Below, in pieces: positions 5,536 through 45,428 of a DNA stretch of 52,022 nt. The DNA is taken from positions 1 through 52,022 of the forward strand of contig JAIXRY010000003.1 of NCBI GenBank assembly GCA_027484965.1. The letters run 5' to 3'. The notes under the pieces are model-generated. The model saw nothing but the letters and a program-made list of their open reading frames with translations, made no database searches and was not told where the DNA came from. The stretch comes from a bacterium (GTDB taxonomy: Bacteria; Patescibacteriota; Minisyncoccia; Phycocordibacterales; UBA9973). The translations under genes and the position numbers were made by a program. Each line of letters opens with the position of its first letter. Positions within the stretch are counted from its first letter, which is position 1.

Positions 5536-6202
5536 CTACGAGGATTGGGTATTATTTTTAGGTGACTGTTCAACAGGTTTTTCCTCAACCTTAGGAGGCA
5601 TTTCTGTCTTCAAGGTGATCTCGGTTGGAATACCAGTAACATCAACTTTCACTTCATGCTTAAAAGTTGTAGGAAAACTATGATCAATATGTCCCTGATG
5701 GTTCATATTCCAATCACGTCCACCTCCACAATTTCCTCCTCGGCAACTATTGCAGTTTCCATTACATCTATAATAATTTCTTCCAGCAATAAGATATCCT
5801 AAAATTCCAAACAAAATTAATCCCAATACAATCACACACCATATAATTCCATTGTCCGATAAAAAAGATGATTGTTGAGGTGTTTGTTGAACAACCACAA
5901 CCGTATCTTTTTTTGCTGGCTCCGTTGGCTGAGTAATAACTCTAGGTCTCGAAGGCATGTAGATTATCCTCGGGCGAGGTTCAGGTCTTTGTAACTCTGG
6001 CCAATTATTAATTATAGTAACTGACGGTTGTTGATCAGGTTGAACTCTAACTGTCGGTTGTTGAATTGGTTGTGGTTCAGGTCCTACAAAAAGGAACTCC
6101 GCGACCAGTATTGTTGATTTGAGCAAAAGTAGAAGTAGAAAATGCTGCTGCGAGGGTTAGTACTCCAAGTACTAACAATCTCATTCTGTTTTTATTGTTC
6201 AT
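5536..6202 (-). CDS. Pro-rich, single-TM, Cys/His-rich protein; signal peptide and body are in different frames (frameshift or sequencing error)
   Basis: ORF 5536-6126 (TTG-initiated in the track) encodes Pro-rich repeats, a TM helix and CNGNCNSCRGGNCGGG. A 41-codon ORF from ATG 6202 (MNNKNRMRLLVLGVLTLAAAFSTSTFAQ...) is a textbook signal peptide but sits in another frame and stops at 6077. Confidence 0.5.
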
Positions 6203-9318: not shown

Positions 9319-10218
9319 TTATTGTTGTGATGTAATAATTTCAGTTGATTTTTCTATAAGACCAACAACATCATCATACATACGAAGTTCTGCAACTTCA
9401 GAAGGAGAAAACCATCTCGCATCATCAAGACCTCCACCAGTACGTAGCGTAAGAGCTTCATAAGGAGCTTCTACCAAGAAATATGTTACTTGTTTGCGGA
9501 GTTTTCCTTTTTCTGGATGAGATGCAACGTATTCGTTTTCACCGAGAGCTTCAACGACTTTTGTTTCTATTCCTACTTCTTCTTTTACAACACGTACAAC
9601 AGCAGTCTCTACAGCTTCAGCTTCTTCCACACCTCCTTTTGAAAGGGTCCAGTATCCAAAAACATCATGCACAAGAGCAAAAGAGAATCCTCCATCATAA
9701 CGCCCAAAAATTACAGCGCCAGCTTTTTTCTCGATAGGAAGTTTTGTAATATCGATAGGCTCATTAGAAACTTGTTTTTTGCCGAATTGTTCTTTTCCTG
9801 GCTCACCAATTTCTTTATACACAGCACCAAGTACTCCATTAATGAATCTACTAGAATTATCACCTCCAAAAGCTTTTGCGAGCTCTATAGCCTCATTAAT
9901 AGCTACTTTAGGTGGAACTTCTGATCTATTACCGAAGAGGAGTTCATAGAGACCAATACGAAGGATATTTCTGTCAGGAACAGCGATTTTTGCTACAGGC
10001 CATTCAGGAGCTGCCTTTGTAATAATATCGTCAATAACTGTACGCTTGCGCAAAACACCATCAAGAAGCATTTCTAGGAATGCATCATCGTTTAAACCAG
10101 GACCAAACTCAACAGTATTTCTTTTGAGCATTTCTTTAGGGTCTCCAGCTTGGCCATTAAAATCCCATTCGAAAAGTGTTTGGAGAACAATTGAACGAGA
10201 GAGATGTCTATTTGCCAT
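9319..10218 (-). CDS. nusB: NusB antitermination factor fused to a C-terminal Nudix hydrolase domain
   Basis: Residues 1-150 are NusB-like (SRSIVLQTLFEWDF, DRNILRIGLYELLF, AINEAIELAKAFG, FINGVLG). Residues from about 165 carry a Nudix box GGVEEAEAVETAVVRVVKEEVGI. Confidence 0.85.
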   Translation of the reverse strand: MANRHLSRSIVLQTLFEWDFNGQAGDPKEMLKRNTVEFGPGLNDDAFLEMLLDGVLRKRTVIDDIITKAAPEWPVAKIAVPDRNILRIGLYELLFGNRSEVPPKVAINEAIELAKAFGGDNSSRFINGVLGAVYKEIGEPGKEQFGKKQVSNEPIDITKLPIEKKAGAVIFGRYDGGFSFALVHDVFGYWTLSKGGVEEAEAVETAVVRVVKEEVGIETKVVEALGENEYVASHPEKGKLRKQVTYFLVEAPYEALTLRTGGGLDDARWFSPSEVAELRMYDDVVGLIEKSTEIITSQQ

Positions 10219-11523: not shown

Positions 11524-12390
11524 TTAAGCGGCTATTGATAACGCGTCAGTAAGTTCCATTTTACTAATCAAAGCTTCTTTTTGCTTTCTAAGATTTTCAG
11601 CCTTTTGCATAGCGCTAGATTCCTTATCTGCAATCTTTTGAATTTCAGCTTCTAAGCGACGCATACGAAGCATGTTCATACTCTTGCGATGATTTTCTTT
11701 AATTTTAGCAACTCTTTCTTGGGCAGATAGAATTGCATTTTCACTAAAAGATTTAACACTTTCATATTTATTCTTAACTCCTTCTTTTGCAGTTTGGAGA
11801 CCTTCAACAGTTTTTTCTTTTGCGTAAAAAGCAGCGTCTTTAGAAAGATTTGCCGTATCCTTTGCAAATTGAGAAATTTGCTCTCCTTTATTTACAACAA
11901 ATTTTTCTACAGAATCATAACCTCTATCCATAGCATCATACCCTTTTACGAGCATGTCACCTGTAGATGAGACTAATTCTGCTCCAGCTCTACCAATATT
12001 TTTTCCTGTAATATTTGCACCCTTATCTGTCCATTCATCAAATTCTTTTACTTTTTCTACTGAATAATCATATCCTTGCTTTGCAAAAACGTCAGACATT
12101 GCAGCACCAGCAACAATATTACCTGTAACTTTTTTTGTATTATTCCAAAAACGTCCAAGCTTTGATGCAAGAGCATTGCCTTTTTTTGCAACAATTTCTT
12201 TAACTTGAGATATCTTTTCACCAACAAGAGCTAAACGTTCACGTCCAACAGCAAGAGGATCCTCTTGTGTATTATTCAACTCAACATTTTCAGCTGATTC
12301 TTGATTTAACTCTTCTACACTCTTAGCTTCTGCAGGTATTGAAACCTCAGGCACCTCTTTTTTACCAAAACTAAATAGTCCCATATACAT
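11524..12390 (-). CDS. Hypothetical coiled-coil / amphipathic-helix-repeat protein
   Basis: 288-aa ORF with Lys/Glu/Ala-rich helical repeats. No family recognised. Confidence 0.5.
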   Translation of the reverse strand: MYMGLFSFGKKEVPEVSIPAEAKSVEELNQESAENVELNNTQEDPLAVGRERLALVGEKISQVKEIVAKKGNALASKLGRFWNNTKKVTGNIVAGAAMSDVFAKQGYDYSVEKVKEFDEWTDKGANITGKNIGRAGAELVSSTGDMLVKGYDAMDRGYDSVEKFVVNKGEQISQFAKDTANLSKDAAFYAKEKTVEGLQTAKEGVKNKYESVKSFSENAILSAQERVAKIKENHRKSMNMLRMRRLEAEIQKIADKESSAMQKAENLRKQKEALISKMELTDALSIAA

Positions 12391-14935: not shown

Positions 14936-16972
14936 TTAAATATCCAAATTTGCCATTTTTGCGTGAGACTGAATAAATGCTTTACGTGGTGGAACTTCAT
15001 TACCCATCAACATATCAAACACTTTATTTGCCTCTTCTGCATCTTCAACAGCAACTTGTTTCAAAATACGTTTTGTAACATCCATTGTTGTTTCTTGAAG
15101 TTCTTCAGCGTTCATCTCTCCAAGACCTTTGTAACGTTGAATAGAAATTTTTACAGAGCGCTTTCCTTTTATTTCTTCTGCCTCATCAACTTCTTCTTCA
15201 TTTTCTGTTGATTCATCTACTTCTTCTGCTTGTTCATTTCCTACGATTGCAAATTTTTCTTCGTCAGTGAAGGCATAAAATATTTCTTTACCTTTTTTAA
15301 TTTTATATAAAGGTGGCTGAGCAATGTATACATATCCAGCATCTAAAATTGGACGGAAGTAACGGAAAAATAGTGTAAGAATAAGAGTACGAATATGGGC
15401 TCCGTCCACATCAGCATCCGTTGCTAGAATTATTTTGTGATAACGCATTTTTTCTAGATCAAATGTATCCCCAATAGATGCACCCATAGCAACAACCAAA
15501 TTTTTAATTTGTTCACTTCCAAGCATTCTATCAAGACGCGCACGTTCAACGTTCAATATTTTTCCACGGAGTGGAAGTATGGCTTGAGTCTTACGATCAC
15601 GACCCGCTTTAGCTGTACCTCCCGCTGAATCTCCCTCCACAATAAAGAGTTCTGATTCTGCTGCACTCTTTGACTGACAGTCAGCGAGTTTTCCTGGTAG
15701 TGTCATTCCTTCTAGTGCACCTTTACGGAGTATTGAATCTTTTGCGGCTTTTGCTGCTTTTCTAGCACGTAGAGCAAGAACTGCTTTATTAATGATGCCT
15801 TTTGCATTATCTGGATTTTCTTCAAAGAAAGCAGTAAGCGCTTCACCAAATACAGTAGCGACAGCGCCTTGCGCTTCAGTAGAACCGAGTTTTGATTTTG
15901 TTTGACCTTCAAATTGAATTTCACGAAGTTTTACAGACACAACAGCGACAATACCTTCAAGAACATCATCCCCTGTAAATCCACCATCAGCTTCTTTTAG
16001 AATATTATTCTTCTTAGCGTAAGTATTAATTACACGAGTAAGAGCAGTCTTAAATCCTGTGATATGTGTACCTCCTTCTGGAGTGTAAATATTGTTTGCA
16101 AATGGAACAATTTTTGAAGACATATCATCAATATATTGAAATGCAATTTCAACCCCAACTTCATCTTGCCATTTGTCTACATAGAAAATAGTATCTTGAA
16201 CTGCTTTTTGATGCTTTGTATAAAGTTTGACCAAAGACACAAGACCTCCTTCGAAGTAGTATGAAATTGATGGGAGCTCAAGTCCGAGATCTGAAAGCCA
16301 AAATATTTCAGTATCTTTTATTTTTTCAACACATTCACGTGCATCAATAATATGAACACGAAGTTCCTTTACAAGATATGCTTGTTGTTCTAGACGATGA
16401 ATAATTGTATTCCAATCAAATTTTATTTCTTTAAAAATTTCTATATCAGGTTCAAAAGTAATAATAGTTCCATTATTTTTTGTCTTACCAATATTTTTTA
16501 CATTTGCCTTCTTTTTACCTTGTGAATATTCTTGAACATGAATTCCTCCCTCACGGTGAACTTCAGCACGAGTATAGATAGACAAGGCGTTTACAACAGA
16601 AGCACCTACACCATGAAGTCCTCCAGAAACCTTATACCCTTCACCGCCAAATTTTCCTCCAGCATGAAGAGTTGTCATGACTGTTTCAAGAGCAGAAACT
16701 TTTGTCTTAGGGTGAATACCTACAGGAATACCGCGTCCATTATCAACAACACGAATACGATTGCCAGGAAGAAGTACAACTTCAATACGATTACAAAAAC
16801 CTCCCATCGCTTCATCGCGTGAGTTGTCGAAGATTTCCCATATGAGGTGATGGAGTCCTTCTGTACCAGTACCACCAATATACATACCCGGTCTACGACG
16901 TACTGGCTCGAGCCCCTCTAGGACTGAAATATCTTCCGCACCGTAACTTGATTTTTTAGGGGCACTTGCCAT
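14936..16972 (-). CDS. gyrB: DNA gyrase subunit B
   Basis: GHKL ATPase motifs (GLHHLIWEIFDNSRDE, GGLHGVGASVVNALS), Toprim (EGDSAGG, DADVDGAHI) and the C-terminal tail QRYKGLGEMN. Contains an acidic insert, EQAEEVDESTENEEEVDEAEE. Confidence 0.97.
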   Translation of the reverse strand: MASAPKKSSYGAEDISVLEGLEPVRRRPGMYIGGTGTEGLHHLIWEIFDNSRDEAMGGFCNRIEVVLLPGNRIRVVDNGRGIPVGIHPKTKVSALETVMTTLHAGGKFGGEGYKVSGGLHGVGASVVNALSIYTRAEVHREGGIHVQEYSQGKKKANVKNIGKTKNNGTIITFEPDIEIFKEIKFDWNTIIHRLEQQAYLVKELRVHIIDARECVEKIKDTEIFWLSDLGLELPSISYYFEGGLVSLVKLYTKHQKAVQDTIFYVDKWQDEVGVEIAFQYIDDMSSKIVPFANNIYTPEGGTHITGFKTALTRVINTYAKKNNILKEADGGFTGDDVLEGIVAVVSVKLREIQFEGQTKSKLGSTEAQGAVATVFGEALTAFFEENPDNAKGIINKAVLALRARKAAKAAKDSILRKGALEGMTLPGKLADCQSKSAAESELFIVEGDSAGGTAKAGRDRKTQAILPLRGKILNVERARLDRMLGSEQIKNLVVAMGASIGDTFDLEKMRYHKIILATDADVDGAHIRTLILTLFFRYFRPILDAGYVYIAQPPLYKIKKGKEIFYAFTDEEKFAIVGNEQAEEVDESTENEEEVDEAEEIKGKRSVKISIQRYKGLGEMNAEELQETTMDVTKRILKQVAVEDAEEANKVFDMLMGNEVPPRKAFIQSHAKMANLDI

Positions 16973-17061: not shown

Positions 17062-17241
17062 TTAAATGTGTATTTTAGCTTGCCAATACAAGTTATTTTC
17101 TTTGTAATATTCTTGAATTGTTTTTAGGTTAATATTATAAAATTCTATTTCTTCTTGAGTTAGAATTTCCATTTTTGAAATCTTTTCATCAACAACCCAC
17201 ATCTTTTTTAATATTTCATTTTTATTTAAATCTTGAATCAT
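17062..17241 (-). CDS. Hypothetical small protein
   Basis: ORF immediately downstream of pheS. The start at MIQDLNK avoids the overlap. No family recognised. Confidence 0.3.
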   Translation of the reverse strand: MIQDLNKNEILKKMWVVDEKISKMEILTQEEIEFYNINLKTIQEYYKENNLYWQAKIHI

Positions 17242-17245
17242 GTGT

Positions 17246-18379
17246 CTAGCGTATTTTTGCTTTATAAACTTCAACTGTCTTTTCTTCCAATTTTTTATGA
17301 AGATTATTTACTTCTTCATCAGTCAGAGTCTTTTCTAGTGAGCGGTATGTTATACGATATGCATAACTCTTATTCCCTTCTCCAAACTTTTCAGCATTTT
17401 CATATTCATCAATAAGAGCCATTTCTTCAGCCAGATCACCAATAACATCACGGACCAAATCAAAGTAATCATTTGGAGTAAAATTTGCCTTCTCTACAAT
17501 AAAAGATATGTCACGAATAACTGCAGGATATTTACTAACCTCTTTGAATTTTTGTCCTAGAATAAGTTGCTTTTTGACACGCTCATCATTTGACCAAAGA
17601 AGTCTAATATCTGGGAGCTCCATACTGATAATTGCGAGACGTTCGAGACCAAAACCGAAAGCCCAACCATTATATCCTTCAAGTCCGAAATTTTTTAGAA
17701 CATCTTTGCGAGGCATTCCTCCACCCATAATCTCAACCCATTTTCCATCAAGCTCAACTTCAATCTGAAGTGATGGGTCTGTATAAGGGAATGTATCATC
17801 TAAGAAACGATATTTCGTTTCTTTTCCAAAAAGTCCTTCCACTATTTCTACAAGAGCTTCTCTCAAATCATCAAGAGTAAGAACTTTTTCAATATCTGGC
17901 ACTAAATATAATCCTCCCATTTGATGGAAGATATTCATATGCTTACGATCAATTTCATCTTTACGATAAACCTTTCCATAACAGATAACACCAAGTGATT
18001 CATTATTTTTTATACGTTCTTGTATATCTCTCTGTCCTAAGTAGTAGTACCACATCACAGTATCGTGAGTTCTAAGAATGTTTTCTTCATCTACATAATA
18101 TGTATCTGATTTACTACGCGCTACATGATCCGGTGCAAAATTAAACAAATCAAAAGAAACTGAAGCAGAAACTATTTCAGGGATTATAATATTATCAAAA
18201 CTTTTCAATATATTTATGCTTTTAGTTTTTTCTACAAGAGAAAATAGAGGGCTTGATTCGGTGCGAGAAAGATCGGACATCGCCAAATATCTTTTTATTC
18301 TGTCTGATTCAGCATCATTTCTTTCTTCAAAATCCTTCAAAATAAGGTCTTGCTTTGTTGTATCTATTCTTATTTCCAT
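17246..18379 (-). CDS. pheS: Phenylalanyl-tRNA synthetase, single-chain type: PheS catalytic core fused to an FDX-ACB anticodon-binding domain
   Basis: Class II motifs GKVYRKDEIDRKHMNIFHQ, FPYTDPSLQIEV and GWAFGFGLERLA. The C-terminal SKYPAVIRDISFIV...YRITYRSLEKTLTDEEVN is an FDX-ACB (PheT B8-like) domain. Confidence 0.9.
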   Translation of the reverse strand: MEIRIDTTKQDLILKDFEERNDAESDRIKRYLAMSDLSRTESSPLFSLVEKTKSINILKSFDNIIIPEIVSASVSFDLFNFAPDHVARSKSDTYYVDEENILRTHDTVMWYYYLGQRDIQERIKNNESLGVICYGKVYRKDEIDRKHMNIFHQMGGLYLVPDIEKVLTLDDLREALVEIVEGLFGKETKYRFLDDTFPYTDPSLQIEVELDGKWVEIMGGGMPRKDVLKNFGLEGYNGWAFGFGLERLAIISMELPDIRLLWSNDERVKKQLILGQKFKEVSKYPAVIRDISFIVEKANFTPNDYFDLVRDVIGDLAEEMALIDEYENAEKFGEGNKSYAYRITYRSLEKTLTDEEVNNLHKKLEEKTVEVYKAKIR

Positions 18380-26018: not shown

Positions 26019-28550
<2,532 letters not shown>

Positions 28551-28567
<17 letters not shown>

Positions 28568-29192
28568 ATAGTGTTTCAGTAAAAATTTTTGTTTTGTTAG
28601 ATGTTCCGTTTTTCCAGGTAATTGTAGCCACAACGACAAGACTATTACTACCGTCAGGATTATTATATAAAACTATTTTTCTCCTAAAAGAAGTTTTTTC
28701 TATTGCATCAATAAGAGCTAGCGGTTCAATACCATAATAATCCACATTAGATGTTGTGTCTCTGTAAACATTTATATTAGTACATGCAGGAAGTCCATCG
28801 TCGTCATAACCAGAACACCCATAAACTGATTTTGTAAATGCGTCTATTTCGCATCCTAGGCTTTCATTAAAACATACATCATACTTTGATATAAAACCAG
28901 CCCAATCAGTAGAGCCTCTTTGATTAAATTTTTGAAAGATAATACTATCACGATCGTTTCTAATAATATCTACAGCTTCTTGAGCAAGATATGTTGCAAT
29001 AACATCATTTTTTGAATATTGCCCAGAATTTGTAGTTGTACCTGAAAGCGCAAACAGTGCTGTGATAGACATGCTAAAAATAAATATAGCTATCAATGTT
29101 TCAACAAGAGTAAATCCTTGTCCACCAAAATTATGATACCTTGTAGAGGAATTTGAATATGTATATTTATTTTTAAAATTTAAAAATTTCAT
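28551..29192 (-). CDS. Type IV minor pilin / pseudopilin
   Basis: Prepilin motif GQG|FTLVETLIAIFIFS after a leader of about 26 aa. Confidence 0.7.
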
Positions 29193-29195
29193 ATT

Positions 29196-29858
29196 TTAAT
29201 ATTTAAATTGCCTCTGTGACAAAAAAGTTTGGACCCGGAATGCAGAACTTTGATTTTCGACCATTGAAACACCGTCAATGAAAAGATTCACTCCTGGCTG
29301 CCCCTCACTCGTAACTCCTTTTACAGTAAATACGAGATTATACACGTCAATACTTGAAGCTGTAATTGGAGCGCATATCCACACAAAAGAATTTCCTGAC
29401 ACATAATCTTTACTCTCGCAACGCTCAATATAACTATAATCAAGACCTGTTCTTGGGTTATTTGTCTTAGCTATTTGATATCCATATACATCAACAATAC
29501 CCGTAACAGTATTAAGAACTTTAAAAACAAGTCCTGTCCCCGAAGAGCAGTCTGCACCGAATCTTGCTGAAGGAAAATCACTTTCACTGTTTATATCAAT
29601 AGGAATATCTTTATTATTAAGACAAGTATAATCATACCCGAGCCTACTATTTCTTGATAGGTTTTCTATGGCGAAATTAAGATTATCCATAACAGTACGA
29701 GAAGCTTCTGCATTACGAGCTCCAGATTGAGCTGTGACCATAGCAGCTAATCCAGATATAATAACAGCTGTGAAAAGCGTAAGTGAAATCATAAGCTCCA
29801 CCAAAGTAAAAGCTTTTTGTTTTTCATTATTTTTCTTTGTATAAGAAAAATTGTACAT
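29196..29858 (-). CDS. Type IV minor pilin / pseudopilin (Ala at -1)
   Basis: KQKA|FTLVELMISLTLF N-terminal methylation-type motif. Confidence 0.7.
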   Translation of the reverse strand: MYNFSYTKKNNEKQKAFTLVELMISLTLFTAVIISGLAAMVTAQSGARNAEASRTVMDNLNFAIENLSRNSRLGYDYTCLNNKDIPIDINSESDFPSARFGADCSSGTGLVFKVLNTVTGIVDVYGYQIAKTNNPRTGLDYSYIERCESKDYVSGNSFVWICAPITASSIDVYNLVFTVKGVTSEGQPGVNLFIDGVSMVENQSSAFRVQTFLSQRQFKY

Positions 29859-29862
29859 ATAT

Positions 29863-30636
29863 CTATTCTACACTAATGACCCCTGTGTTCCATATAGTAA
29901 TAAATCTTCTCACTCCATCAACAGAAACAACAGAAATTGACACATGCGATATAGGGTTATTTGTAGCAGGATCAAGGTTTGTTGTTTGTCCTGTTGAGAT
30001 ATCTGTGTAAGAGAAAAGTGCATCTTGATTTGGTCTATTGAAAACAATATCAAGCATTCCTTCAAAAACACAGTCGCTATCGTTTAAACAAAGTGCTTCT
30101 ATGCGATCGGTTGTCGTTATTAATATTTCATCAACACATTCTTCTTGTGCAGTAAATATTCTATTACAAGAAGTACCATCATACACATTGTTAGCGTTTA
30201 TTGTTGGATTAGTGGTTTTAAAATCACCAAACAATAAAAAAGTATCTGGATATTGCATATCAAAATGCACCCCATAACCAATGACTGTCTCATTTAAAAG
30301 TGTTGGTTCAGGACTCTGAAAACCAAGAGTGTAACTTTGAGCTTTTCGAATAGTTAGAGCTATATCTTGCGCTAGATTTTTTACAGTAATACTTGTCTCA
30401 AAAGATCTGTAATTAAAAGCTGAAATAGAAGATATAACAGCAAAAATAGCAACAACAACCATTAATTCTACCACTGTAAACCCGGACACTAAATTTGACG
30501 AAACACATCCACGCACTTTGACTTGTGGTCTAGATATAGAAAAACTTAATGTGCTGGTAAACCTCCTCACTAAATTAGTTTTAGAAAAGTTAGTATTAGC
30601 TAATATTATTTTATTTTTTATATCTTTAAAAAACAT
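29863..30636 (-). CDS. Type IV minor pilin / pseudopilin with an unusually long leader
   Basis: VSG|FTVVELMVVVAIFAV motif. ATG 30636 abuts the pilD stop and gives a leader of about 52 aa. An in-frame GTG would give 12 aa. Confidence 0.65.
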   Translation of the reverse strand: MFFKDIKNKIILANTNFSKTNLVRRFTSTLSFSISRPQVKVRGCVSSNLVSGFTVVELMVVVAIFAVISSISAFNYRSFETSITVKNLAQDIALTIRKAQSYTLGFQSPEPTLLNETVIGYGVHFDMQYPDTFLLFGDFKTTNPTINANNVYDGTSCNRIFTAQEECVDEILITTTDRIEALCLNDSDCVFEGMLDIVFNRPNQDALFSYTDISTGQTTNLDPATNNPISHVSISVVSVDGVRRFITIWNTGVISVE

Positions 30637-30638
30637 TT

Positions 30639-31433
30639 TTAAAATGTAAAGAATTTCATTAAAGACGAAAAGTCTAACGAGAAGAAAAATACAATCCATG
30701 AACTTATAAACAAGAATGGGGCAAAAGGAATTTCTGTTTTAAGTCCCCATTTTGTCTTACCAATAAGTATTATAATGATTGAGAAGAGCGCTCCAATCCA
30801 GAAAGAAATAAGAAGTGATGTAAATCCAGCAGAAATTCCAAGTAAAGCACCTATAGACAAAGCTATCTTAGCGTCACCAAACCCCATCCACTTCCCTTTT
30901 GAAACAAAGAATATAATAGCAAAAGGAGACGCTACCAAGAAAGACGCAAGAAGTGTTGGTGCAATACTTTGTGGACCATGCATAATAGCAGCAAGCATAA
31001 CACTCGAAAAGAATGATGCATAAGAAAAAATATCTGGAATAATTTTATGTCTTACATCGTATACAAACATAACAATCCACAAACAAAATATAAATGTAGT
31101 AAGCGTTGTTATTGCAACAAAATTACTTGGATCAACAAAAAATATTCCTGATAATTTGTAAGCTGTTAGTGTAAAAATAATAGCTGTTAGAAATTCAACT
31201 ATTGGATACTGAAAAGAAATTGTATTTTTACAAGTACGACATCTACCTAATTGCGTTATAAAAGAAACGAGAGGTATTAGCTCATACCACTTAAGTGTAG
31301 TACTACAAGAAAAACAAATAGATCTACCTTTTGAAACAGAGCGTCCTGTATTAAACCTACAAATAACAACATTCAAAAAACTTCCAATAACAGTACCTAG
31401 AATTGCAATGAGAAAATAAATTAAAAAGTTCAT
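30639..31433 (-). CDS. pilD: Prepilin peptidase / N-methyltransferase (A24 family)
   Basis: N-terminal CFSC...CRTC zinc motif, polytopic, catalytic GFGDAK region. Confidence 0.9.
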   Translation of the reverse strand: MNFLIYFLIAILGTVIGSFLNVVICRFNTGRSVSKGRSICFSCSTTLKWYELIPLVSFITQLGRCRTCKNTISFQYPIVEFLTAIIFTLTAYKLSGIFFVDPSNFVAITTLTTFIFCLWIVMFVYDVRHKIIPDIFSYASFFSSVMLAAIMHGPQSIAPTLLASFLVASPFAIIFFVSKGKWMGFGDAKIALSIGALLGISAGFTSLLISFWIGALFSIIIILIGKTKWGLKTEIPFAPFLFISSWIVFFFSLDFSSLMKFFTF

Positions 31434-31500
31434 ATATATAGTATACAGTGAATAATGTATAGCGTTAAGTAAATAATGGTAATTATCAATATAAAAACAA

Positions 31501-31525
31501 AAAAATCCCCAAAGGGGATTTTTTT
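31501..31525. terminator. Terminator AAAAATCCCC/AAA/GGGGATTTTT downstream of the second pilin
   Basis: Read directly. Confidence 0.75.
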
Positions 31526-31543
31526 GTTAATCTATAATATAGA

Positions 31544-32026
31544 TTAAGGACAAACAACAGTATTTGCCGCCAAAACTGTTGTTGTTTCTTTTGAAGCACC
31601 TGTTGAATCAACACACGCATAAGTTGGAGTTGAAATACTTCTCAATTTAACTGAAGCCGCCCATCCTGCTGCATTAGCAAAACAGTTAGCAGTAGATGCA
31701 GTTTGAACTGCACCACCTGTAACAATAGTACCAGTACCTGCAGCAGTTGAAGCTGCTTGTATAGCAGAACCAATACCAAATGAACTAGTAGTACAAACAC
31801 CTTGATAACCTGATGTTGATGCAGATGAGTCAATATCACTTGCTATACCAGTGTTTCCGTCAAAATAAATCTCTGCTTGTGCACGAGCATTTGCCAAGTT
31901 TGCTTTAATAGCAGCATCAGCTCCTTTTGTACGAGCACTGTTAAGAGATGCAAGCACTACAGAAGCCAAGATACCAATGATTGCAATAACAACCAAAAGT
32001 TCGATCAATGTAAAACCTTTTTTCAT
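31544..32026 (-). CDS. Type IV pilin (paralog 2)
   Basis: MKKG|[28 protein letters not shown], with a C-terminal Cys pair. Start at 32026 is preceded by TATATT 6 nt upstream; the ORF is open to 32065. Confidence 0.85.
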
Positions 32027-32134
32027 ATATGAAATATACTTTTCGTCCGTCACGTTTTCGGACATTTAACTTACTATTTATTAATAATAGATTAATTATA
32101 TCACTTTTACAGATACTGCAACAATAACATGTGG

Positions 32135-32188
32135 AAAACATTACAAGACAAAACCCCACAAATGTGGGGTTTTGTCTTGTAATGTTTT
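32135..32188. terminator. 25-bp-arm perfect hairpin (AAAACATTACAAGACAAAACCCCAC/AAAT/GTGGGGTTTTGTCTTGTAATGTTTT) between the two pilin genes
   Basis: Read directly. Confidence 0.8.
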
Positions 32189-32202
32189 AATCCAAAAATA
32201 AT

Positions 32203-32706
32203 TTAAGGACAAGCAGTAAATGCTGTTGTAAGAGTCATTGTATCAACGAGCTTTGATATATTATTAGAGTCTACACAGAAAAAATCAACACCAGAAGAAG
32301 CAGATACAAGATTTGTGTCTCTCATTTGAACAGCAGCAGCCCAGTTTGTACCAGTGGCATTAACATAACCATATAGAGTAGAGTTAGCACTTTCAGCTGC
32401 TCTTCTTAACATATCTTGTATACCTAAAGATGATTTAGGAGAAAAAACTCCTGTACCATTAGTAACAGTTCCAGCACCAGTAACAGTAAATGCTATTGCT
32501 GCAGGTGATGCAGCTGACGCACTATATGTAACATTTGTATCAAAATACAAAACACCCTGAGCTCTCGCATTTATCATATTTGATCTTATAGCAGCGTCAG
32601 TTCCTTTTGTACGAGAGCTATTTAAGGAAGCAAGAACAATAGACGCGAGTACGCCGATAATTGCAATAACAACCAAAAGTTCGATCAATGTAAAACCTTT
32701 TTTCAT
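32203..32706 (-). CDS. pilA: Type IV pilin (paralog 1, probable major pilin)
   Basis: MKKG|[28 protein letters not shown], with a C-terminal Cys pair. It has its own upstream TGATATAAT and a strong downstream hairpin. Confidence 0.88.
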   Translation of the reverse strand: MKKGFTLIELLVVIAIIGVLASIVLASLNSSRTKGTDAAIRSNMINARAQGVLYFDTNVTYSASAASPAAIAFTVTGAGTVTNGTGVFSPKSSLGIQDMLRRAAESANSTLYGYVNATGTNWAAAVQMRDTNLVSASSGVDFFCVDSNNISKLVDTMTLTTAFTACP

Positions 32707-32817
32707 AAATTAATAATTTTGTTTCTTAAAAAACTTATCGATAATAACATATAATATTATATCATTAATATTTAACATTACAACATAATAAATATGTTGA
32801 AAAAATTAATAGATAGA

Positions 32818-34023
32818 TTATTTGATACCTCCAGCAATGTTATAAATAGGCATCAAAACAGATGTGAGAAGCATACCCACTCCAAGACCAAGAGCAACAA
32901 TCATAACAGGCTCAATAAGACCTACAAGTGTATCTACAGCATCATCAACTTCACGTTTATAAAAATTCGCAAGCGTTTTCAAGATACTTCCCATAGCACC
33001 TGTCTCTTCACCAACCTTAATCATCTGAACCAACATTTGGGGAACTTCTTTATGATTACCTAGTGCATCAGAAAAAGAATTACCAGACTTTACCTTTTCA
33101 CATGAATTATTAAGAATATCTTGGTATGTATTATTACCTACAACTCCAGCAGTGATTTCGATAGCACGAACAATAGGAATACCAGAAGAAAGCATTGTGT
33201 TCATATTGTCTGATATACGAGCAAGATACACTTTTGTAAAAAGTGGACCAAAAATAGGCACTTTTAATTTTAAGCTATCGATTAAGAGTTTCCCTTTCTT
33301 ACTCTTTAGAGCATAAAATCCTAAAAATACCAGTATTCCAACACCTACAAGAAGATACAGTCCATAATTAACCATCAATTCACTGATAGTCATAACGACT
33401 CTTGTATTCCAAGGAATATCTTGACCTGATTCTTTAATAATTGCAGAGAGTTTTGGAACAATCATAACAAACATAAGTACCATAACCACAACGAAAATAC
33501 CAATAACGAAAGCTGGGTAAATAAGGGCGTTTTTTGTTTTTGCAGCAAGAGCATATTGACGATCAAGATAGTCAGCCAAATACGCAAACGTTTGAGTTAA
33601 TTTCCCAGATTCTTCACCAGACTTCACCATGTTTACATAAAAGTCAGAGAAAATCATCGGATGTTTTGAAAGAGCTTCAGAAATAGAAAGTCCTGATTGA
33701 AGATCACTAACAACAGCCTCCAAATTCTTTTTCATGAGCTTATTTTCAGAGTTAGAAGCGATCAATGAAAAAGCTTTAAGTGCTGAAACTTGTGCCTCGA
33801 ACAATGTTGATATTTGGCGAGACATTATAACAATATCTTTAACAGGTATATGATCAAATAGAGATATTTCTAAAATTGACTTTGGTTTATCAGCAGAAAT
33901 AACAGTAAGAACAATCAATCCTCTTCTTTGAACAGCCGAAATAGCAGAGTCCCGACTTACAGCCTCAACTACTCCGTCTTGTTTCTCACCCTTTTCATTA
34001 ACTGCAGTATAATTAAAATTCAT
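32818..34023 (-). CDS. pilC: Type IV pilus platform protein PilC (GspF family)
   Basis: Two T2SSF repeats and three TM regions; typical GspF/PilC sequence. Confidence 0.92.
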   Translation of the reverse strand: MNFNYTAVNEKGEKQDGVVEAVSRDSAISAVQRRGLIVLTVISADKPKSILEISLFDHIPVKDIVIMSRQISTLFEAQVSALKAFSLIASNSENKLMKKNLEAVVSDLQSGLSISEALSKHPMIFSDFYVNMVKSGEESGKLTQTFAYLADYLDRQYALAAKTKNALIYPAFVIGIFVVVMVLMFVMIVPKLSAIIKESGQDIPWNTRVVMTISELMVNYGLYLLVGVGILVFLGFYALKSKKGKLLIDSLKLKVPIFGPLFTKVYLARISDNMNTMLSSGIPIVRAIEITAGVVGNNTYQDILNNSCEKVKSGNSFSDALGNHKEVPQMLVQMIKVGEETGAMGSILKTLANFYKREVDDAVDTLVGLIEPVMIVALGLGVGMLLTSVLMPIYNIAGGIK

Positions 34024-34030
34024 ATATGAT

Positions 34031-35092
34031 TTACATCATTGATTGAAAAGCTCTAGGATTTGTAGAGTATGCAATAGCAGACTCCATAGTGATTTCACCA
34101 GCACGAACAAGTTCTATGAGAGATCGATTTATATCAACCATCCCCTGTTCAAGACCTGTTTCTATAACAACATCTATTTCATGAGTTCTCTTTTCACGGA
34201 TAAGATTTGCAACAGCATTATTATTTATCAAAAGTTCATAAGCAGGAATTCTTCCTCCAACAATTCTAGGAACAAGTCTTTGTGAAAAGATACCTAGCAA
34301 AGACGCTGCTAACTGAGTACGTATTTGATCTTGTTGTGCTGGTGGAAACGAGTCTATAATACGATCGATTGTTTGAGAGGCGCTGTTTGTATGGAGAGTA
34401 GCAAAAACAAGGTGTCCTGTTTCAGCTGCTGTTACAGCAGCTGCCATAGTCTCATGATTTCTAAGTTCACCAATCAAAATAACATTTGCATCTGAACGAA
34501 ACACTGTCTTAAGTGCATTTTCAAAACTCTCTGTATCTATACCCACATCACGCTGATCAATAATAGATCTTTTTATAGGATAAATATGCTCTACAGGATC
34601 TTCGATAGTAACGATATGGGCAGCCCTCTTTTCATTAATAATATCCACCATTGCTGCAAGTGTTGTTGATTTTCCTTGCCCAACAGGACCTACAACAAGA
34701 AAGAATCCTTGACGAGCAAGAGCGAACTGCTCAAGAATTGGAGGAAGTTTTAGAGATTGTAAAGATTCTATTTCAGGTATGAGTCGCAACGCTACAGAAA
34801 TACCACTCTTTTGATAACAAGCACTTCCACGAAGTCTAAGACCTTTTGGTGTATCAAAAGCAAAATCAAGTTCTTGTTGTGTTAAAAATTTTTTTGTACG
34901 CTCACTTCCGGCCAAAATTTCAATTAGAGAAATCATATTCTCTTTTGTTGGAATTTCTTTTTGTTCTAAAAAAACTAATTCTCCAGAAATACGTATCGCA
35001 GGATATCTACTTGTCGATATATGCAAATCGGAAGCACCTTGAGTGTGCATGTTTTCTATTAAATCAAGAAGGTATTCTTTAGAATCTATCAT
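34031..35092 (-). CDS. pilT: Twitching-motility retraction ATPase PilT
   Basis: Walker A GPVGQGKSTT, Asp box, Walker B ILIGELR, His box ATLHTN. A size of about 350 aa is typical of PilT. Confidence 0.9.
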   Translation of the reverse strand: MIDSKEYLLDLIENMHTQGASDLHISTSRYPAIRISGELVFLEQKEIPTKENMISLIEILAGSERTKKFLTQQELDFAFDTPKGLRLRGSACYQKSGISVALRLIPEIESLQSLKLPPILEQFALARQGFFLVVGPVGQGKSTTLAAMVDIINEKRAAHIVTIEDPVEHIYPIKRSIIDQRDVGIDTESFENALKTVFRSDANVILIGELRNHETMAAAVTAAETGHLVFATLHTNSASQTIDRIIDSFPPAQQDQIRTQLAASLLGIFSQRLVPRIVGGRIPAYELLINNNAVANLIREKRTHEIDVVIETGLEQGMVDINRSLIELVRAGEITMESAIAYSTNPRAFQSMM

Positions 35093-35097
35093 AATTA

Positions 35098-35487
35098 TTA
35101 TTGTTTTGGTTGTGTAATAGAAACAACTCTTGCAACAACCTCAGATGGTGTTGCGTTAGCTTTTACAATATATCCTGAAGCACCAAGAGCTTTACCTTTT
35201 TCAATATCTTCTGTTTGTCCAAGATTTGAAATAATAATCTTGATTGTGTTTGGAATTAATTTTTCTTCATTTATTTTTTCCAAAAGCTCAAAACCATCCA
35301 TAACAGGCATAACAACATCTGTTAATAAAATATCTGGACTTACAGATTGTTTTAATTTCTGAAGCGCAACAGTAGACCCTAAAGCAGTATCAACAATAAA
35401 TCCTGACTGGCTAAATTTTAGCGCATACATGTCAAGGAGAAAGCTGTCATCATCAACAATTAAAATAGTCTTCTTTTTATCTTCCAT
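35098..35487 (-). CDS. CheY-like receiver-only response regulator embedded between pilB and pilT
   Basis: ILIVDDD and DILLTDVVMPVMDG (acceptor Asp), with Lys in YIVKA. Start at MEDKKKT. Confidence 0.8.
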   Translation of the reverse strand: MEDKKKTILIVDDDSFLLDMYALKFSQSGFIVDTALGSTVALQKLKQSVSPDILLTDVVMPVMDGFELLEKINEEKLIPNTIKIIISNLGQTEDIEKGKALGASGYIVKANATPSEVVARVVSITQPKQ

Positions 35488-35531
35488 AATATACCTAGTA
35501 TACCATGATAAGATAATTTTCAAGTGTGAAA

Positions 35532-37265: not shown

Positions 37266-37274
37266 ATGTAATAA

Positions 37275-37769
37275 TTATAGACCATTTAACAAACTATCAA
37301 GACTGTCGAGAGTTGGTACTGTCGTATTGGTTGTTTTCTTTTCTGACTGATTAGTAAGTGTTGTTGTATTTTTATTTGTAGTACCTAGTTCTTGATTTGT
37401 TGAAGTGTTAATTGTATTTGTTGTATCAATCAAACTAGCAGTATCTTGTCCTACAGGAGCAAAAGGATTAGGTCTGCCTGCTGGAGCGTCTGTTGGTAAT
37501 ACTGAACCATAATTAACAAGTTTTTGGAATGCTTTACTTTGAATGATTGAGGGATCAAGAGAGATTGTTTTAATACTCTGAAGTAAAGAAACAAACTGTT
37601 GACTTGGATCAGGAGTAGAGGTATCACCATTTACATTAAGAGTGCCTTTAGACATAAGAGGTGTCTGAGTTTTTGCGGAATCTTGAAATTTTGGAATAAC
37701 AACAACAGCAATAGCTATGATTACAAGTATACCTAGGATAATGAGTAATTTTTTAACATTTTTATTCAT
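37275..37769 (-). CDS. PilP-like / hypothetical TM-anchored Thr/Asn-rich protein
   Basis: Position between the PilO-like gene and pilB, with a single TM helix. GRPNPFAPV resembles the R-D-P-F motif of PilP-type proteins. Confidence 0.4.
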   Translation of the reverse strand: MNKNVKKLLIILGILVIIAIAVVVIPKFQDSAKTQTPLMSKGTLNVNGDTSTPDPSQQFVSLLQSIKTISLDPSIIQSKAFQKLVNYGSVLPTDAPAGRPNPFAPVGQDTASLIDTTNTINTSTNQELGTTNKNTTTLTNQSEKKTTNTTVPTLDSLDSLLNGL

Positions 37770-37774
37770 AATTA

Positions 37775-38422: not shown

Positions 38423-38427
38423 ATAAT

Positions 38428-40154: not shown

Positions 40155-40163
40155 AGTGTATAA

Positions 40164-40182
40164 ATAAATTATATCATACAAT
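40164..40182. promoter_or_regulatory. Overlapping back-to-back -10 boxes for pilM (TGATATAAT, minus) and comF (TACAAT 40177-40182, plus, 6 nt before ATG 40189)
   Basis: Read directly on both strands. Confidence 0.4.
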
Positions 40183-45145: not shown

Positions 45146-45162
45146 AAGCATTCCTTAATTTG

Positions 45163-45249
45163 CGGAGGATGTGAGATTCGAACTCACGGGCCGAATTACC
45201 AGCCGACGGTTTAGTAAACCGTTGATTTAAACCACTCATCCAATCCTCC
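45163..45249 (-). tRNA. Type II (long variable arm) Ser-like tRNA with anticodon ACU (hand fold)
   Basis: Acceptor GGAGGAT/ATCCTCC, D-stem GAT/ATC, anticodon arm ACGGT-TTACTAA-ACCGT, long variable arm, T-arm GTGAG-TTCGAAT-CTCAC, discriminator G. No encoded CCA. Confidence 0.7.
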
Positions 45250-45341: not shown

Positions 45342-45428
45342 GGAGCCGTGTCAGAGCGGTCTAACGTACCTCTTTGCTAAAGAGGCAGGGTGTAAAAAAC
45401 CTCGGGAGTTCGAATCTCCCCGGCTCCG
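45342..45428 (+). tRNA. tRNA-Ser (anticodon GCU), type II; the D-stem pairs poorly in my fold
   Basis: Acceptor GGAGCCG/CGGCTCC, anticodon arm CCTCT-TTGCTAA-AGAGG, long variable arm, T-arm GGGAG-TTCGAAT-CTCCC, discriminator G. Confidence 0.8.

What the first reader, a model, noticed from the sequence alone, without database searches (positions are those of the whole stretch)
17246..18379. Mitochondrial-type single-chain PheRS: PheS catalytic core fused to the FDX-ACB anticodon-binding domain, with no adjacent pheT
The 377-aa product has the class II PheS core (GKVYRKDEIDRKHMNIFHQ, FPYTDPSLQIEV, GWAFGFGLERLA). It lacks the long N-terminal coiled-coil arm of bacterial PheS. From about residue 285 (SKYPAVIRDISFIV ... 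YRITYRSLEKTLTDEEVN) it continues into a ferredoxin-fold anticodon-binding domain, which in bacteria is the C-terminal B8 domain of the beta subunit PheT. A core plus FDX-ACB in one chain is the architecture of monomeric mitochondrial PheRS (FARS2/Msf1). From memory, the linker (PDIRLLWSNDERVKKQ) and the DYFDLVRDVIGDL segment also resemble FARS2. Canonical bacterial PheRS is an (alpha-beta)2 heterotetramer encoded by adjacent pheS-pheT. Here the downstream genes are a 60-aa ORF and gyrB. If the genome has no pheT, this is a bacterial monomeric PheRS without the PheT editing site, which bears on genome reduction and on the origin of the organellar enzyme.
Basis: partly seen in the sequence, partly recalled or inferred. 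Interest (0 to 1): 0.7.

Follow-up and report, generated by a model that had tools for sequence, protein, structure and literature searches.

The report
Single-chain mitochondrial-type PheRS in CPR bacteria
An ultra-small (CPR/Patescibacteria) bacterium makes its phenylalanine-charging enzyme as one chain built like the mitochondrial enzyme, and this gene sits exactly where related bacteria keep the usual two-gene version, which gives the mitochondrial enzyme a bacterial sister group.

Summary
ORF 17246-18379 (-) encodes a 377-aa protein with a class II PheS core (aa 38-271) plus a C-terminal FDX-ACB domain (aa 282-377). It has no PheS N-terminal arm, and the window holds no pheT. Its best sequence and fold matches are human mitochondrial PheRS (E 6e-61; TM 0.75 to 3CMQ).

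The host is a Paceibacteria (Nomurabacteria-like) CPR bacterium, and orthologs occur in at least seven named Paceibacteria lineages and in a code-25 CPR contig. Trees of both domains show one fusion event. A bacterial clade (100% bootstrap) is sister to the clade holding the named eukaryotic organellar enzymes (97%). It is neither nested in eukaryotes nor inside ordinary bacterial PheS.

I could not scan a whole genome for pheT. However, other CPR lineages carry canonical pheS-pheT in the same slot (UvrD/PD-(D/E)XK helicase - PheRS - gyrB - nusG - rplK). That arrangement was absent from all 78 non-CPR reference loci, which argues for replacement in place. The gene is as conserved as gyrB.

All catalytic residues are invariant. 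The carboxylate thought to bind the substrate amino group has moved from motif 2 to the THxT loop with exception-free covariation (117:126:0:0).

Best reading: the cell's sole, editing-free monomeric PheRS (confidence about 0.8). I found no published description.

The parts
17246..18379 (-). Gene for the 377-aa single-chain PheRS (stop codon 17246-17248)
   Evidence: ORF listing; Pfam tRNA-synt_2d + FDX-ACB; best PDB match is human mtPheRS
18269..18379 (-). Short N-terminal helical region (aa 1-37); there is no long coiled-coil arm and no PF02912 domain
   Evidence: No Pfam hit in this region; the AF2 model shows helices 8-19 and 23-33; canonical CPR PheS proteins carry PF02912
17567..18268 (-). 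Class IIc catalytic core (aa 38-271)
   Evidence: PF01409, E 2.8e-51; coordinates verified by translation
18059..18070 (-). THDT loop (aa 104-107). Asp106 (18062-18064) replaces the usual Thr and is the relocated carboxylate
   Evidence: Motif alignment; covariation with position 155 in 243 sequences, 117 D/G, 126 non-D/D, none with both or neither
17912..17974 (-). Motif 2, KVYRKDEIDRKHMNIFHQMGG (aa 136-156). Arg139 and Gln153 are invariant; Gly155 (17915-17917) stands where canonical and organellar enzymes have Glu or Asp
17771..17791 (-). FPYTDPS (aa 197-203), counterpart of the FPF(T) Phe-ring pocket. The second aromatic residue is Tyr in the Nomurabacteria-type and code-25 sequences
   Evidence: Y 131: F 112 among 243 clade-A sequences
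17633..17668 (-). Motif 3, GWAFGFGLERLA (aa 238-249), with the specificity Ala240 and Arg247, both invariant
17537..17566 (-). Inter-domain linker (aa 272-281), following the PDIRLLWSxDERVKKQ segment shared with FARS2
   Evidence: Residue-by-residue alignment to human mtPheRS
17249..17536 (-). FDX-ACB (ferredoxin-fold anticodon-binding) domain, aa 282-377
   Evidence: PF03147, E 9e-22, model positions 1-94 of 94; monophyletic with organellar FDX-ACB against PheT B8, 97%
14936..16972 (-). gyrB, the downstream neighbour and part of the conserved CPR PheRS-gyrB block
   Evidence: Translation; GyrB domains in the orthologous loci; 55-56% identical to the GyrB next to canonical pheT in L201 and L129
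18526..21504 (-). UvrD-type helicase with a C-terminal PD-(D/E)XK nuclease (992 aa), the upstream neighbour and part of the conserved block
   Evidence: Pfam; full-length homologs lie upstream of canonical pheS-pheT in CPR loci L156 and L201
12713..14464 (+). thrS (ThrRS), linked to this neighbourhood in the Nomurabacteria-type genomes
   Evidence: Translation; syntenic in L001 and L240

Best explanation
This gene encodes the organism's working phenylalanyl-tRNA synthetase. It is a single-chain enzyme with the same architecture and fold as mitochondrial PheRS (FARS2/Msf1).

How it most likely works. The class IIc core activates Phe with ATP through motif-2 Arg139, Gln153, the FP(Y)T aromatic pocket, Ala240 and motif-3 Arg247. 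In this Nomurabacteria-type subgroup the substrate's alpha-amino group is probably held by Asp106 in the THDT loop, replacing the usual motif-2 Glu/Asp, which here is Gly155. The C-terminal FDX-ACB domain, which in ordinary bacteria is the last domain (B8) of PheT, reads the tRNA-Phe anticodon. This presumably follows a hinge opening from the closed state that the model adopts, as in human mtPheRS. The enzyme has no B3/B4 editing domain, so it would not proofread Tyr- or m-Tyr-tRNA-Phe in cis.

Evolution. In the lineage leading to the class Paceibacteria this one gene replaced pheS-pheT in place, immediately upstream of gyrB. The fusion arose once and is shared with the organellar enzymes, and the bacterial clade is their sister group.

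Shown here: the architecture, the fold, conservation of the catalytic residues, the covariation, the phylogenetic position, the shared chromosomal slot, and the strong sequence constraint. Inferred: Phe specificity, the monomeric state, sole-PheRS status, lack of editing, and the mechanistic role of Asp106.
For: Domains: PF01409 + PF03147, with no PF02912.

Closest solved relatives: human mtPheRS by sequence (E 6e-61, against 1e-30 for bacterial alpha chains) and by fold. The AF2 model has pLDDT 88.6 and pTM 0.81. Foldseek gives E about 1e-30 and TM 0.75/0.70 over the whole chain to 3CMQ/5MGU, while bacterial alpha chains match the core only (TMq about 0.5).

Curated HMMs: pheS_mito is the top NCBIfam hit (248 bits), and CPR relative P0121 passes its cutoff (264 against 258).

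Constraint: 73% identity to the ortholog in the finished 808-kb Nomurabacteria genome CP064958.1, against GyrB 76%, ThrRS 55% and the helicase 47%. More than 100 homologs at 68-94% identity are about 376-380 aa long.

Active site: Arg139, Gln153, Ala240 and Arg247 are invariant in 243 family members. The carboxylate covariation is 117 D106/G155, 126 non-D/D155, none with both or neither.

Distribution: Nomura-, Taylor-, Wolfe-, Staskawicz-, Nealson- and Portnoybacteria, Paceibacterota and a code-25 CPR contig.

Positional replacement. Canonical pheS-pheT sits in the same block in other CPR lineages:
- L201: helicase ... pheS-pheT-gyrB-...-nusG-rplK-dCMP deaminase-...-thyX
- L156: helicase-RmuC-x-pheS-pheT
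- L157 and L242: RmuC ... pheS-pheT ... gyrB-...-gyrA
- L129: pheS-pheT ... gyrB

Fused loci:
- window and L240: helicase-(pilin-like in L240)-PheRS-gyrB
- L001: helicase ... PheRS-x-gyrB
- L158 and L244: PheRS-gyrB-...-nusG-rplK-dCMP deaminase ... gatB

Background: in 80 GTDB pheS-pheT loci (1.36 Mb), only the Patescibacteria one (L201) has gyrB or this helicase within 10 kb, so none of the 78 non-CPR loci does. Among 80 metagenome pheS-pheT loci only L129, which is CPR, has gyrB nearby.

No canonical pheS or pheT was found in 186.6 kb from nine Paceibacteria loci.

Phylogeny (NJ): fused family 100% against 23 canonical PheS, bacterial clade A 100%, clade B 97%; FDX-ACB of the fused family 97% against PheT B8.
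Against: No complete Paceibacteria genome could be searched for pheT, for a second pheS, or for an archaeal-type PheRS. Absence therefore rests on synteny and on about 190 kb of sampled DNA.

The reference-genome scan sampled only 600 pheT loci and caught just two CPR genomes, so it gives no statistical weight on absence from Paceibacteria.

The window protein scores below every curated NCBIfam cutoff: pheS_mito 248 against 258.35, SrmL 233 against 300, pheS 156 against 237. NCBI names these proteins 'hypothetical protein'.

The key motif-2 carboxylate is missing in this subgroup, and its replacement by Asp106 is inferred from covariation, not measured in the model. The covariation could also reflect a single ancestral event.

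Two of the seven fused loci are not next to gyrB (L159, L243). The helicases in fused and canonical loci are only 24-25% identical.

The trees are neighbour-joining with simple distances, because no maximum-likelihood software was available. No tRNA-Phe gene is in the window. No biochemical data exist.
Confidence: 0.8

Rival explanations
1. It is an accessory paralog. The genome also carries canonical pheS-pheT (or an archaeal-type PheRS) elsewhere, and this single-chain protein is a second PheRS, for example a stress- or antibiotic-resistant isoform.
For: The whole genome was not searched. Other CPR lineages do have canonical pheS-pheT (PMC5370408). An Oligoflexia MAG, which is not a reduced genome, carries a clade-A copy that may be an extra gene there. 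NCBIfam holds a related family of 'mystery' PheS-like ligases.
Against: The fused gene sits in the very slot that holds pheS-pheT in other CPR lineages. It is as conserved as gyrB. It is present across the class in genomes of roughly 0.8 Mb (contigs of 785-829 kb carry it), where a redundant aaRS is unlikely to persist. No canonical gene was found in 186.6 kb of Paceibacteria DNA.
Confidence: 0.1
2. It is a PheS-derived ligase with a changed job, such as another amino acid, a non-tRNA acceptor, or an SrmL-like 'mystery ligase' role, and is not a housekeeping PheRS.
For: The motif-2 Glu/Asp is replaced by Gly, FPF by FPY, and the HTS..Q loop by HDTVMW. The SrmL model scores 233 bits, close to pheS_mito at 248, and neither cutoff is reached.
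Against: The SrmL cutoff (300) is missed by 67 bits, and none of 10 relatives reaches it. No protein named SrmL appears among the closest relatives. The specificity Ala240, the aromatic pocket, both class II arginines and Gln153 are invariant, and exactly one carboxylate is always kept. The intact anticodon-binding domain is retained and conserved. The housekeeping neighbourhood and positional replacement of pheS-pheT also argue against it. If this were not PheRS the cell would still need one, and none was seen.
Confidence: 0.07
3. It is a recent acquisition from a eukaryote or giant virus, or eukaryotic contamination of the assembly.
For: The nearest characterised relatives are eukaryotic organellar enzymes. 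One member of the sister clade lies on a huge-phage or giant-virus contig.
Against: The gene is embedded in conserved bacterial synteny in at least six independent assemblies, including a finished chromosome. The bacterial clade is deep (about 50% identity between its subclades) and reciprocally monophyletic with the organellar/viral clade, not nested in it (100% and 97%). The window's G+C is even, 27-37% in 2-kb steps, with 34% over the gene.
Confidence: 0.03

Closest known systems
Mitochondrial/organellar monomeric PheRS (human FARS2, yeast Msf1; 'PheRS-M' in AARS Online, PMC11580382; NCBIfam TIGR00469 pheS_mito; PDB 3CMQ, 3TUP)
   Same: One chain made of a class IIc core plus a C-terminal FDX-ACB domain. 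It has no N-terminal coiled coil and no B3/B4 editing domain. They share the linker motif PDIR(L/I)(L/F)W..DER and the GWAFG(L/F)GLERLA motif 3. It is the best sequence match (E 6e-61) and the best fold match (TM 0.75/0.70). Both domains form one clade with it.
   Different: The host is a bacterium and the gene is chromosomal in a housekeeping block. There is no targeting peptide and no core insertion of the kind that splits the human alignment into two stretches. The clade is a sister to the organellar clade, not nested in it. This subgroup has Gly at the motif-2 Glu/Asp position, Asp in the THxT loop and FPY in place of FPF. It scores 10 bits below the TIGR00469 cutoff.
Canonical bacterial (alpha-beta)2 PheRS, PheS + PheT (TIGR00468/TIGR00472; for example E. 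coli, T. thermophilus 1PYS)
   Same: The core is homologous to PheS (about 33% identity to E. coli PheS) and the FDX-ACB domain is homologous to the PheT B8 domain. The presumed reaction is the same. The chromosomal slot is the same as that of CPR pheS-pheT.
   Different: One gene in place of two. It lacks PF02912, B1-B5, the editing site and the catalytic-like beta module. It scores 156 bits against a cutoff of 237 on TIGR00468. It is separated from 23 canonical PheS sequences, four of them from CPR, with 100% bootstrap.
NCBIfam NF051887 'PheS-related mystery ligase SrmL'
   Same: A PheS-related family whose 349-position model spans both the core and the C-terminal domain of the window protein (aa 67-365, 233 bits).
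   Different: The cutoff of 300 bits is not reached by the window protein or by any of 10 relatives tested. I found no literature on SrmL, and I did not see its members, taxa or gene context.
Single-chain PheRS genes on huge-phage or giant-virus contigs (P0166 on a 494-kb contig; possibly LR745206.1)
   Same: The same two-domain architecture at about 340-370 aa.
   Different: P0166 belongs to clade B with the organellar enzymes, not to the bacterial clade. Its context is viral: terminase, homing endonuclease and T4 RNA ligase.

Membership tests
Monomeric mitochondrial-type PheRS (PheRS-M) | Class IIc PheS-type catalytic core with motifs 2 and 3 | tested here: met
   PF01409, E 2.8e-51; motif-2 Arg, FHQ, GWAFG and ER invariant in 243 homologs
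Monomeric mitochondrial-type PheRS (PheRS-M) | FDX-ACB anticodon-binding domain fused to the C-terminus of the same chain | tested here: met
   PF03147, E 9e-22, full model length; clusters with organellar FDX-ACB against PheT B8, 97%
Monomeric mitochondrial-type PheRS (PheRS-M) | No PheS N-terminal coiled-coil arm and no PheT B1-B7 or editing modules | tested here: met
   No PF02912, PF03483 or PF03484 hit; the protein is only 377 aa
Monomeric mitochondrial-type PheRS (PheRS-M) | Fold superposes on solved mtPheRS over both domains | tested here: met
   Foldseek E about 1e-30, TM 0.75/0.70 to 3CMQ/5MGU; model pLDDT 88.6
Monomeric mitochondrial-type PheRS (PheRS-M) | Shares common ancestry with the organellar enzymes, apart from canonical PheS | tested here: met
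   Fused family 100% against 23 canonical PheS; sister to, not nested in, the organellar clade
Monomeric mitochondrial-type PheRS (PheRS-M) | Reaches the curated TIGR00469 (pheS_mito) cutoff | tested here: not met
   248.0 bits against a cutoff of 258.35; CPR relative P0121 does pass with 264.3
Monomeric mitochondrial-type PheRS (PheRS-M) | Works without a beta subunit, as a monomer and the sole PheRS of its compartment | tested here: inconclusive
   No pheT in the window or in 186.6 kb of Paceibacteria loci. The gene occupies the pheS-pheT slot. A whole genome could not be searched and the oligomeric state is not testable here.
Monomeric mitochondrial-type PheRS (PheRS-M) | Charges tRNA-Phe with phenylalanine | not testable with these tools
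   Only inferred, from conserved pocket residues
Monomeric mitochondrial-type PheRS (PheRS-M) | Nuclear-encoded eukaryotic protein imported into an organelle | tested here: not met
   Bacterial chromosomal gene in conserved CPR synteny
Canonical bacterial PheS (TIGR00468) | Reaches the curated cutoff, has the PF02912 N-terminal domain and is partnered by an adjacent pheT | tested here: not met
   155.8 bits against a cutoff of 237.45; no PF02912; no pheT nearby
SrmL, PheS-related mystery ligase (NF051887) | Reaches the curated cutoff of 300 bits | tested here: not met
   233 bits; 194-274 bits in 10 relatives

The most novel reading that the evidence does not exclude
The single-chain PheRS was invented in bacteria, not in eukaryotes. 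The Paceibacteria/CPR clade would then be the surviving bacterial lineage of the enzyme that early eukaryotes, directly or through viruses, recruited for their organelles. In that case the odd, non-alphaproteobacterial mitochondrial PheRS has an identifiable bacterial source, and a whole bacterial class translates Phe codons with no PheRS editing at all.
Probability: 0.3. Interest if true: 0.85.

Novelty: new member of a known kind. Interest (0 to 1): 0.66.

Why it matters
PheRS is the textbook exception among aminoacyl-tRNA synthetases. It is a heterotetramer everywhere except in organelles, and to my knowledge the origin of the monomeric organellar form has not been traced to a specific bacterial source.

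A deep, class-wide bacterial clade with the same fused architecture, sister to the organellar enzymes, makes that origin testable with proper phylogenetics. That the gene sits in the former pheS-pheT slot gives a clean case of a two-gene essential enzyme replaced in place by a one-gene version during genome streamlining.

It also predicts that a large part of the CPR lacks PheRS proofreading against Tyr and m-Tyr. The relocated active-site carboxylate is a natural experiment in class II active-site plasticity.

On the practical side, NCBI labels these proteins 'hypothetical'. Any marker set that scores completeness with the pheS (TIGR00468) and pheT (TIGR00472) models would count both as missing in these genomes.

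Tried and rejected
1. Literature. Nine full-text searches found no description of a bacterial single-chain PheRS and nothing on SrmL. They covered SrmL, monomeric/mitochondrial-type/single-subunit PheRS, and pheT or TIGR00472 combined with CPR, Patescibacteria or Parcubacteria. The AARS Online and NAR 2023 main texts list PheRS-M only with FARS2/3CMQ. The Minisyncoccus genome paper says nothing on aaRS.

2. Obtaining a CPR PheT probe.
- A motif scan and a profile scan of IMG/VR gave only non-CPR PheTs.
- The Mukai 2017 supplement is not held as text.
- Three short, B2-less, low-GC PheTs from the metagenome scan looked CPR-like. Two turned out to be low-GC Proteobacteria, with pheT-ihfA-merR order and PheS 52-62% identical to E. 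coli (L110, L119). The third is unidentified (L122). L121 is from Ignavibacteriaceae.
- L129 was finally confirmed as Patescibacteria by exact-sequence look-up.

3. Testing pheT absence genome-wide. The search for related loci evaluates only the first 600 pattern matches. Matching contig lengths between PheT hits and contigs carrying the fused gene gave no overlap, which is weak evidence. Walking along CP064958.1 was not feasible within the look-up cap.

4. A homology between the 556-aa gene after pheT in L129 and the 566-aa gene after the fused gene in L001 was tested and not found.

5. The idea that the fused core derives from CPR canonical PheS was rejected, because canonical CPR PheS groups with other canonical PheS. 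The weak attachment of the fused family near Tissierellaceae/Anaerococcus (68%) is not trustworthy.

6. Deposited phage genomes gave one weak full-length match (LR745206.1, 25% identity). The rest were ordinary pheS fragments.
Full report
OBSERVATION. The window is an AT-rich bacterial contig, with G+C of 27-37% in 2-kb steps. Pfam finds the class II PheS core (PF01409, aa 38-271, E 2.8e-51) followed by a complete FDX-ACB domain (PF03147, aa 282-377, E 9e-22). It does not find the PheS N-terminal domain. Against PDB sequences the best matches are the human mitochondrial PheRS entries (E 6e-61), far ahead of bacterial PheS alpha chains (1e-30), and PheT chains match only the last 90-100 residues. 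An AlphaFold2 model (pLDDT 88.6, pTM 0.81) superposes over its whole length on human mtPheRS in the closed state (3CMQ/5MGU, E about 1e-30, TM 0.75/0.70). Bacterial alpha chains cover only the core. One correction: the '60-aa ORF' is antisense to the gene's 3' end. A 70-aa same-strand ORF between PheRS and gyrB has no family hit and is absent from the closest relative.

ORGANISM AND DISTRIBUTION. The closest homologs (68-94% identity, about 376-380 aa) are named Candidatus Nomurabacteria, Taylorbacteria, Paceibacterota or 'Patescibacteria group'. NCBI calls them 'hypothetical protein' and JGI calls them 'PheRS alpha chain'. A second search adds Wolfe-, Staskawicz-, Nealson- and Portnoybacteria. 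A relative on contigs L004/L005 has 13 in-frame TGA codons aligned to conserved Gly positions, which indicates genetic code 25 and therefore a Gracilibacteria/Absconditabacteria-type CPR bacterium. The enzyme is thus spread across the class Paceibacteria and present in at least one more CPR lineage. The window's other genes fit a CPR bacterium: thrS, gyrB, ligA, gatCA, RNase R, SMC, RNase III, a NusB-NUDIX fusion and a type IV pilus cluster.

IS IT A REAL PheRS? The curated NCBIfam models leave it unassigned: pheS_mito 248 bits (cutoff 258), 'PheS-related mystery ligase SrmL' 233 (cutoff 300) and pheS 156 (cutoff 237). CPR relative P0121 passes pheS_mito (264), and none of ten relatives reaches the SrmL cutoff. 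In an alignment of 243 family members the motif-2 Arg, the FHQ Gln, the specificity Ala of GWAFG and the motif-3 Arg are invariant.

The window's subgroup lacks the motif-2 carboxylate (FHQ-M-G-G, where canonical and organellar enzymes have FHQ-x-E/D-G). From my own knowledge of the T. thermophilus and human structures, that residue helps hold the substrate's alpha-amino group. The same sequences have Asp in place of Thr in the RTH-T-T/S loop. The two positions covary without exception: 117 sequences have Asp106 with Gly155, 126 have a non-acidic residue with Asp155, and none has both or neither. I read this as a relocation of the carboxylate within the pocket, which means continued selection on amino-acid binding. 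It may trace to a single ancestral event, and the geometry was not measured. The gene is 73% identical to its ortholog in the finished 808-kb Nomurabacteria genome CP064958.1. That is as conserved as GyrB (76%) and far more than ThrRS (55%) or the neighbouring helicase (47%).

IS THERE A pheT? None is in the window. pheT is not lost CPR-wide. Mukai et al. mention CPR PheRS-beta proteins (PMC5370408), and I recovered a canonical CPR pair. Contig L129 matches NCBI proteins MEK7447593/4, 'phenylalanine--tRNA ligase subunit alpha/beta [Patescibacteria group bacterium]'. Relatives of that PheT include 'candidate division WS5', about forty 935-985-aa 'Patescibacteria group' PheTs with an inserted NlpC/P60 domain, and then Chloroflexota and Bacillota at about 40%. 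It returned two CPR PheT loci (an unnamed Patescibacteria genome, L201, and Berkelbacteria, L216), too few for a statistical statement. Canonical probes (three CPR PheTs, one CPR PheS, both E. coli subunits) hit only the fused gene in 186.6 kb from nine Paceibacteria loci.

POSITIONAL REPLACEMENT. The informative result is synteny.

Canonical CPR loci:
- L201: UvrD/PD-(D/E)XK helicase ... small ORF - pheS - pheT - gyrB - ... - nusG - rplK - dCMP deaminase - ... - thyX
- L156: helicase - RmuC - small ORF - pheS - pheT
- L157 and L242: RmuC ... pheS - pheT ... gyrB - ... - gyrA
- L129: pheS - pheT ... gyrB

Fused loci:
- window: helicase - PheRS - gyrB ... thrS
- L240, the closest relative: the same order with a pilin-like gene inserted
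- L001 (CP064958.1): helicase ... PheRS - x - gyrB ... thrS
- L158 (Staskawiczbacteria) and L244 (Nealsonbacteria): PheRS - gyrB - ... - nusG - rplK - dCMP deaminase - ... - gatB
- L159 and L243 differ

The L156 and L201 helicases align end to end with the window's (24-25% identity over more than 800 aa, E 1e-53 to 1e-57) and share its architecture. As background, among 80 reference-genome pheS-pheT loci (1.36 Mb) only L201 has gyrB or this helicase within 10 kb, so none of the 78 non-CPR loci does. Among 80 metagenome pheS-pheT loci only L129 has gyrB nearby. The fused gene therefore occupies the ancestral CPR PheRS slot. I read this as in-place displacement of pheS-pheT, which makes a hidden second PheRS unlikely without excluding it.

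PHYLOGENY. An exhaustive search of 1.84 billion cluster representatives finds only 204 clusters at E<=1e-30. Of the 150 best, which are the ones listed, nearly all full-length proteins have both domains. Named members include a fern, a locust and Vitrella and an Oligoflexia MAG. One unnamed member of about 350 aa lies on a 494-kb contig with a terminase, a homing endonuclease and T4 RNA ligase, which suggests a huge phage or giant virus.

Neighbour-joining trees of the core (198 columns, 200 bootstraps) were built with 23 canonical PheS sequences, including four from CPR. They give:
- fused family monophyletic, 100%;
- bacterial clade A (Paceibacteria, code-25 CPR, Oligoflexia group), 100%;
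- clade B (the named eukaryotic organellar enzymes, one viral and many unnamed metagenomic sequences), 97%;
- the Oligoflexia group nested within Paceibacteria, 92%, which suggests transfer out of CPR;
- canonical CPR PheS not allied with the fused family (an earlier tree agrees).

The FDX-ACB domains of the fused family are monophyletic against PheT B8 domains at 97%. The fusion therefore happened once, before the CPR and organellar clades split. The direction of transfer is unresolved. These are distance trees and need ML confirmation.

MECHANISM. Most likely this is a monomeric class IIc synthetase. The core makes Phe-AMP, the FDX-ACB domain binds the tRNA-Phe anticodon after a hinge opening (the model is in the closed form of apo mtPheRS), and Phe is transferred to A76. 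There is no editing domain. Shown here: architecture, fold, residue conservation, covariation, phylogeny, synteny and constraint. Inferred: substrate specificity, monomer state, sole-PheRS status, lack of proofreading and the role of Asp106.

NOVELTY AND VERDICT. The kind of enzyme is known (PheRS-M). Generic models (Pfam, TIGR00469) already touch these proteins, and JGI labels them PheRS alpha. I found no paper that describes a bacterial single-chain PheRS (nine searches). NCBI leaves the proteins 'hypothetical', and AARS Online lists PheRS-M only with FARS2. I file it as a new member of a known kind, with an unusual active-site variant and real evolutionary interest. My confidence that it is the cell's functional and sole PheRS is about 0.8. 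The decisive test, an HMM or tblastn search of the finished genomes named above, is simple but was outside the reach of these tools.

Noticed in passing
L156:10001-12838; L157:10001-12952 (and about 40 proteins): Canonical PheT proteins of some Patescibacteria are 935-985 aa long because an NlpC/P60 (PF00877) cell-wall peptidase domain is inserted between the B3_4 editing domain and the B5 domain. This is an odd addition to an aaRS beta subunit.
   Followed up: partly
L006:10001-11104 (494-kb JGI contig Ga0210003_1000004): A 367-aa single-chain PheRS of the organellar/viral clade lies beside a GluRS/GlnRS-type synthetase, Terminase_6N, a NUMOD homing endonuclease, T4 RNA ligase and PNKP. The contig is probably a huge phage or giant virus that encodes its own one-gene PheRS. 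The 635-kb phage record LR745206.1 has a weak full-length match.
   Followed up: partly
L004:9463-10833; L005:154-1524: The fused PheRS gene on this 32% G+C contig has 13 in-frame TGA codons that align to conserved Gly positions. This indicates genetic code 25 (Gracilibacteria/Absconditabacteria). The gene caller had read them as Trp (code 4).
   Followed up: yes
L007:10001-11245 (Oligoflexia MAG GCA_019694465.1, contig JAIBBV010000034.1): An Oligoflexia MAG (50% G+C, ordinary metabolic neighbours) carries a fused PheRS that nests inside the Paceibacteria diversity (92% bootstrap). This could be transfer from CPR to a non-CPR bacterium, or a binning error. Whether that genome also has pheS-pheT is unknown.
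   Followed up: partly
window 9319-10218 (-): A NusB domain and a NUDIX hydrolase domain are fused in one 299-aa protein. The same fusion is present in the closest relative (L240:17864-18763).
   Followed up: no
window about 28058-40181 (-): A large type IV pilus cluster: several pilin-like genes with N-terminal methylation motifs, prepilin peptidase (A24), PilC-like T2SSF, two T2SSE ATPases, a response regulator and PilM/PilO.
   Followed up: no
window 45162-45249 (-) and 45342-45429 (+): Two divergently oriented tRNA-Ser genes lie 92 nt apart (ARAGORN anticodons written act and gct). Rfam at gathering threshold reports only the first. The window holds no tRNA-Phe.
   Followed up: no
window 17062-17274 (-) and 17233-17415 (+): The 273-nt PheRS-gyrB spacer holds a 70-aa ORF with no family hit. 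The closest relative has only a 136-nt spacer and no called gene there, so the ORF is probably not a gene.
   Followed up: yes
L201:8458-8886; L156:8606-8977; L129:7227-7601: A small conserved protein of about 123-143 aa with no Pfam hit on record (L156) sits directly upstream of pheS in canonical CPR loci (34-42% identity between loci). No counterpart was detected in the fused loci I compared.
   Followed up: no
window 43207-44994 (-), 11524-12390 (-), 5536-6126 (-): Several sizeable ORFs (595, 288 and 196 aa) have no Pfam match.
   Followed up: no
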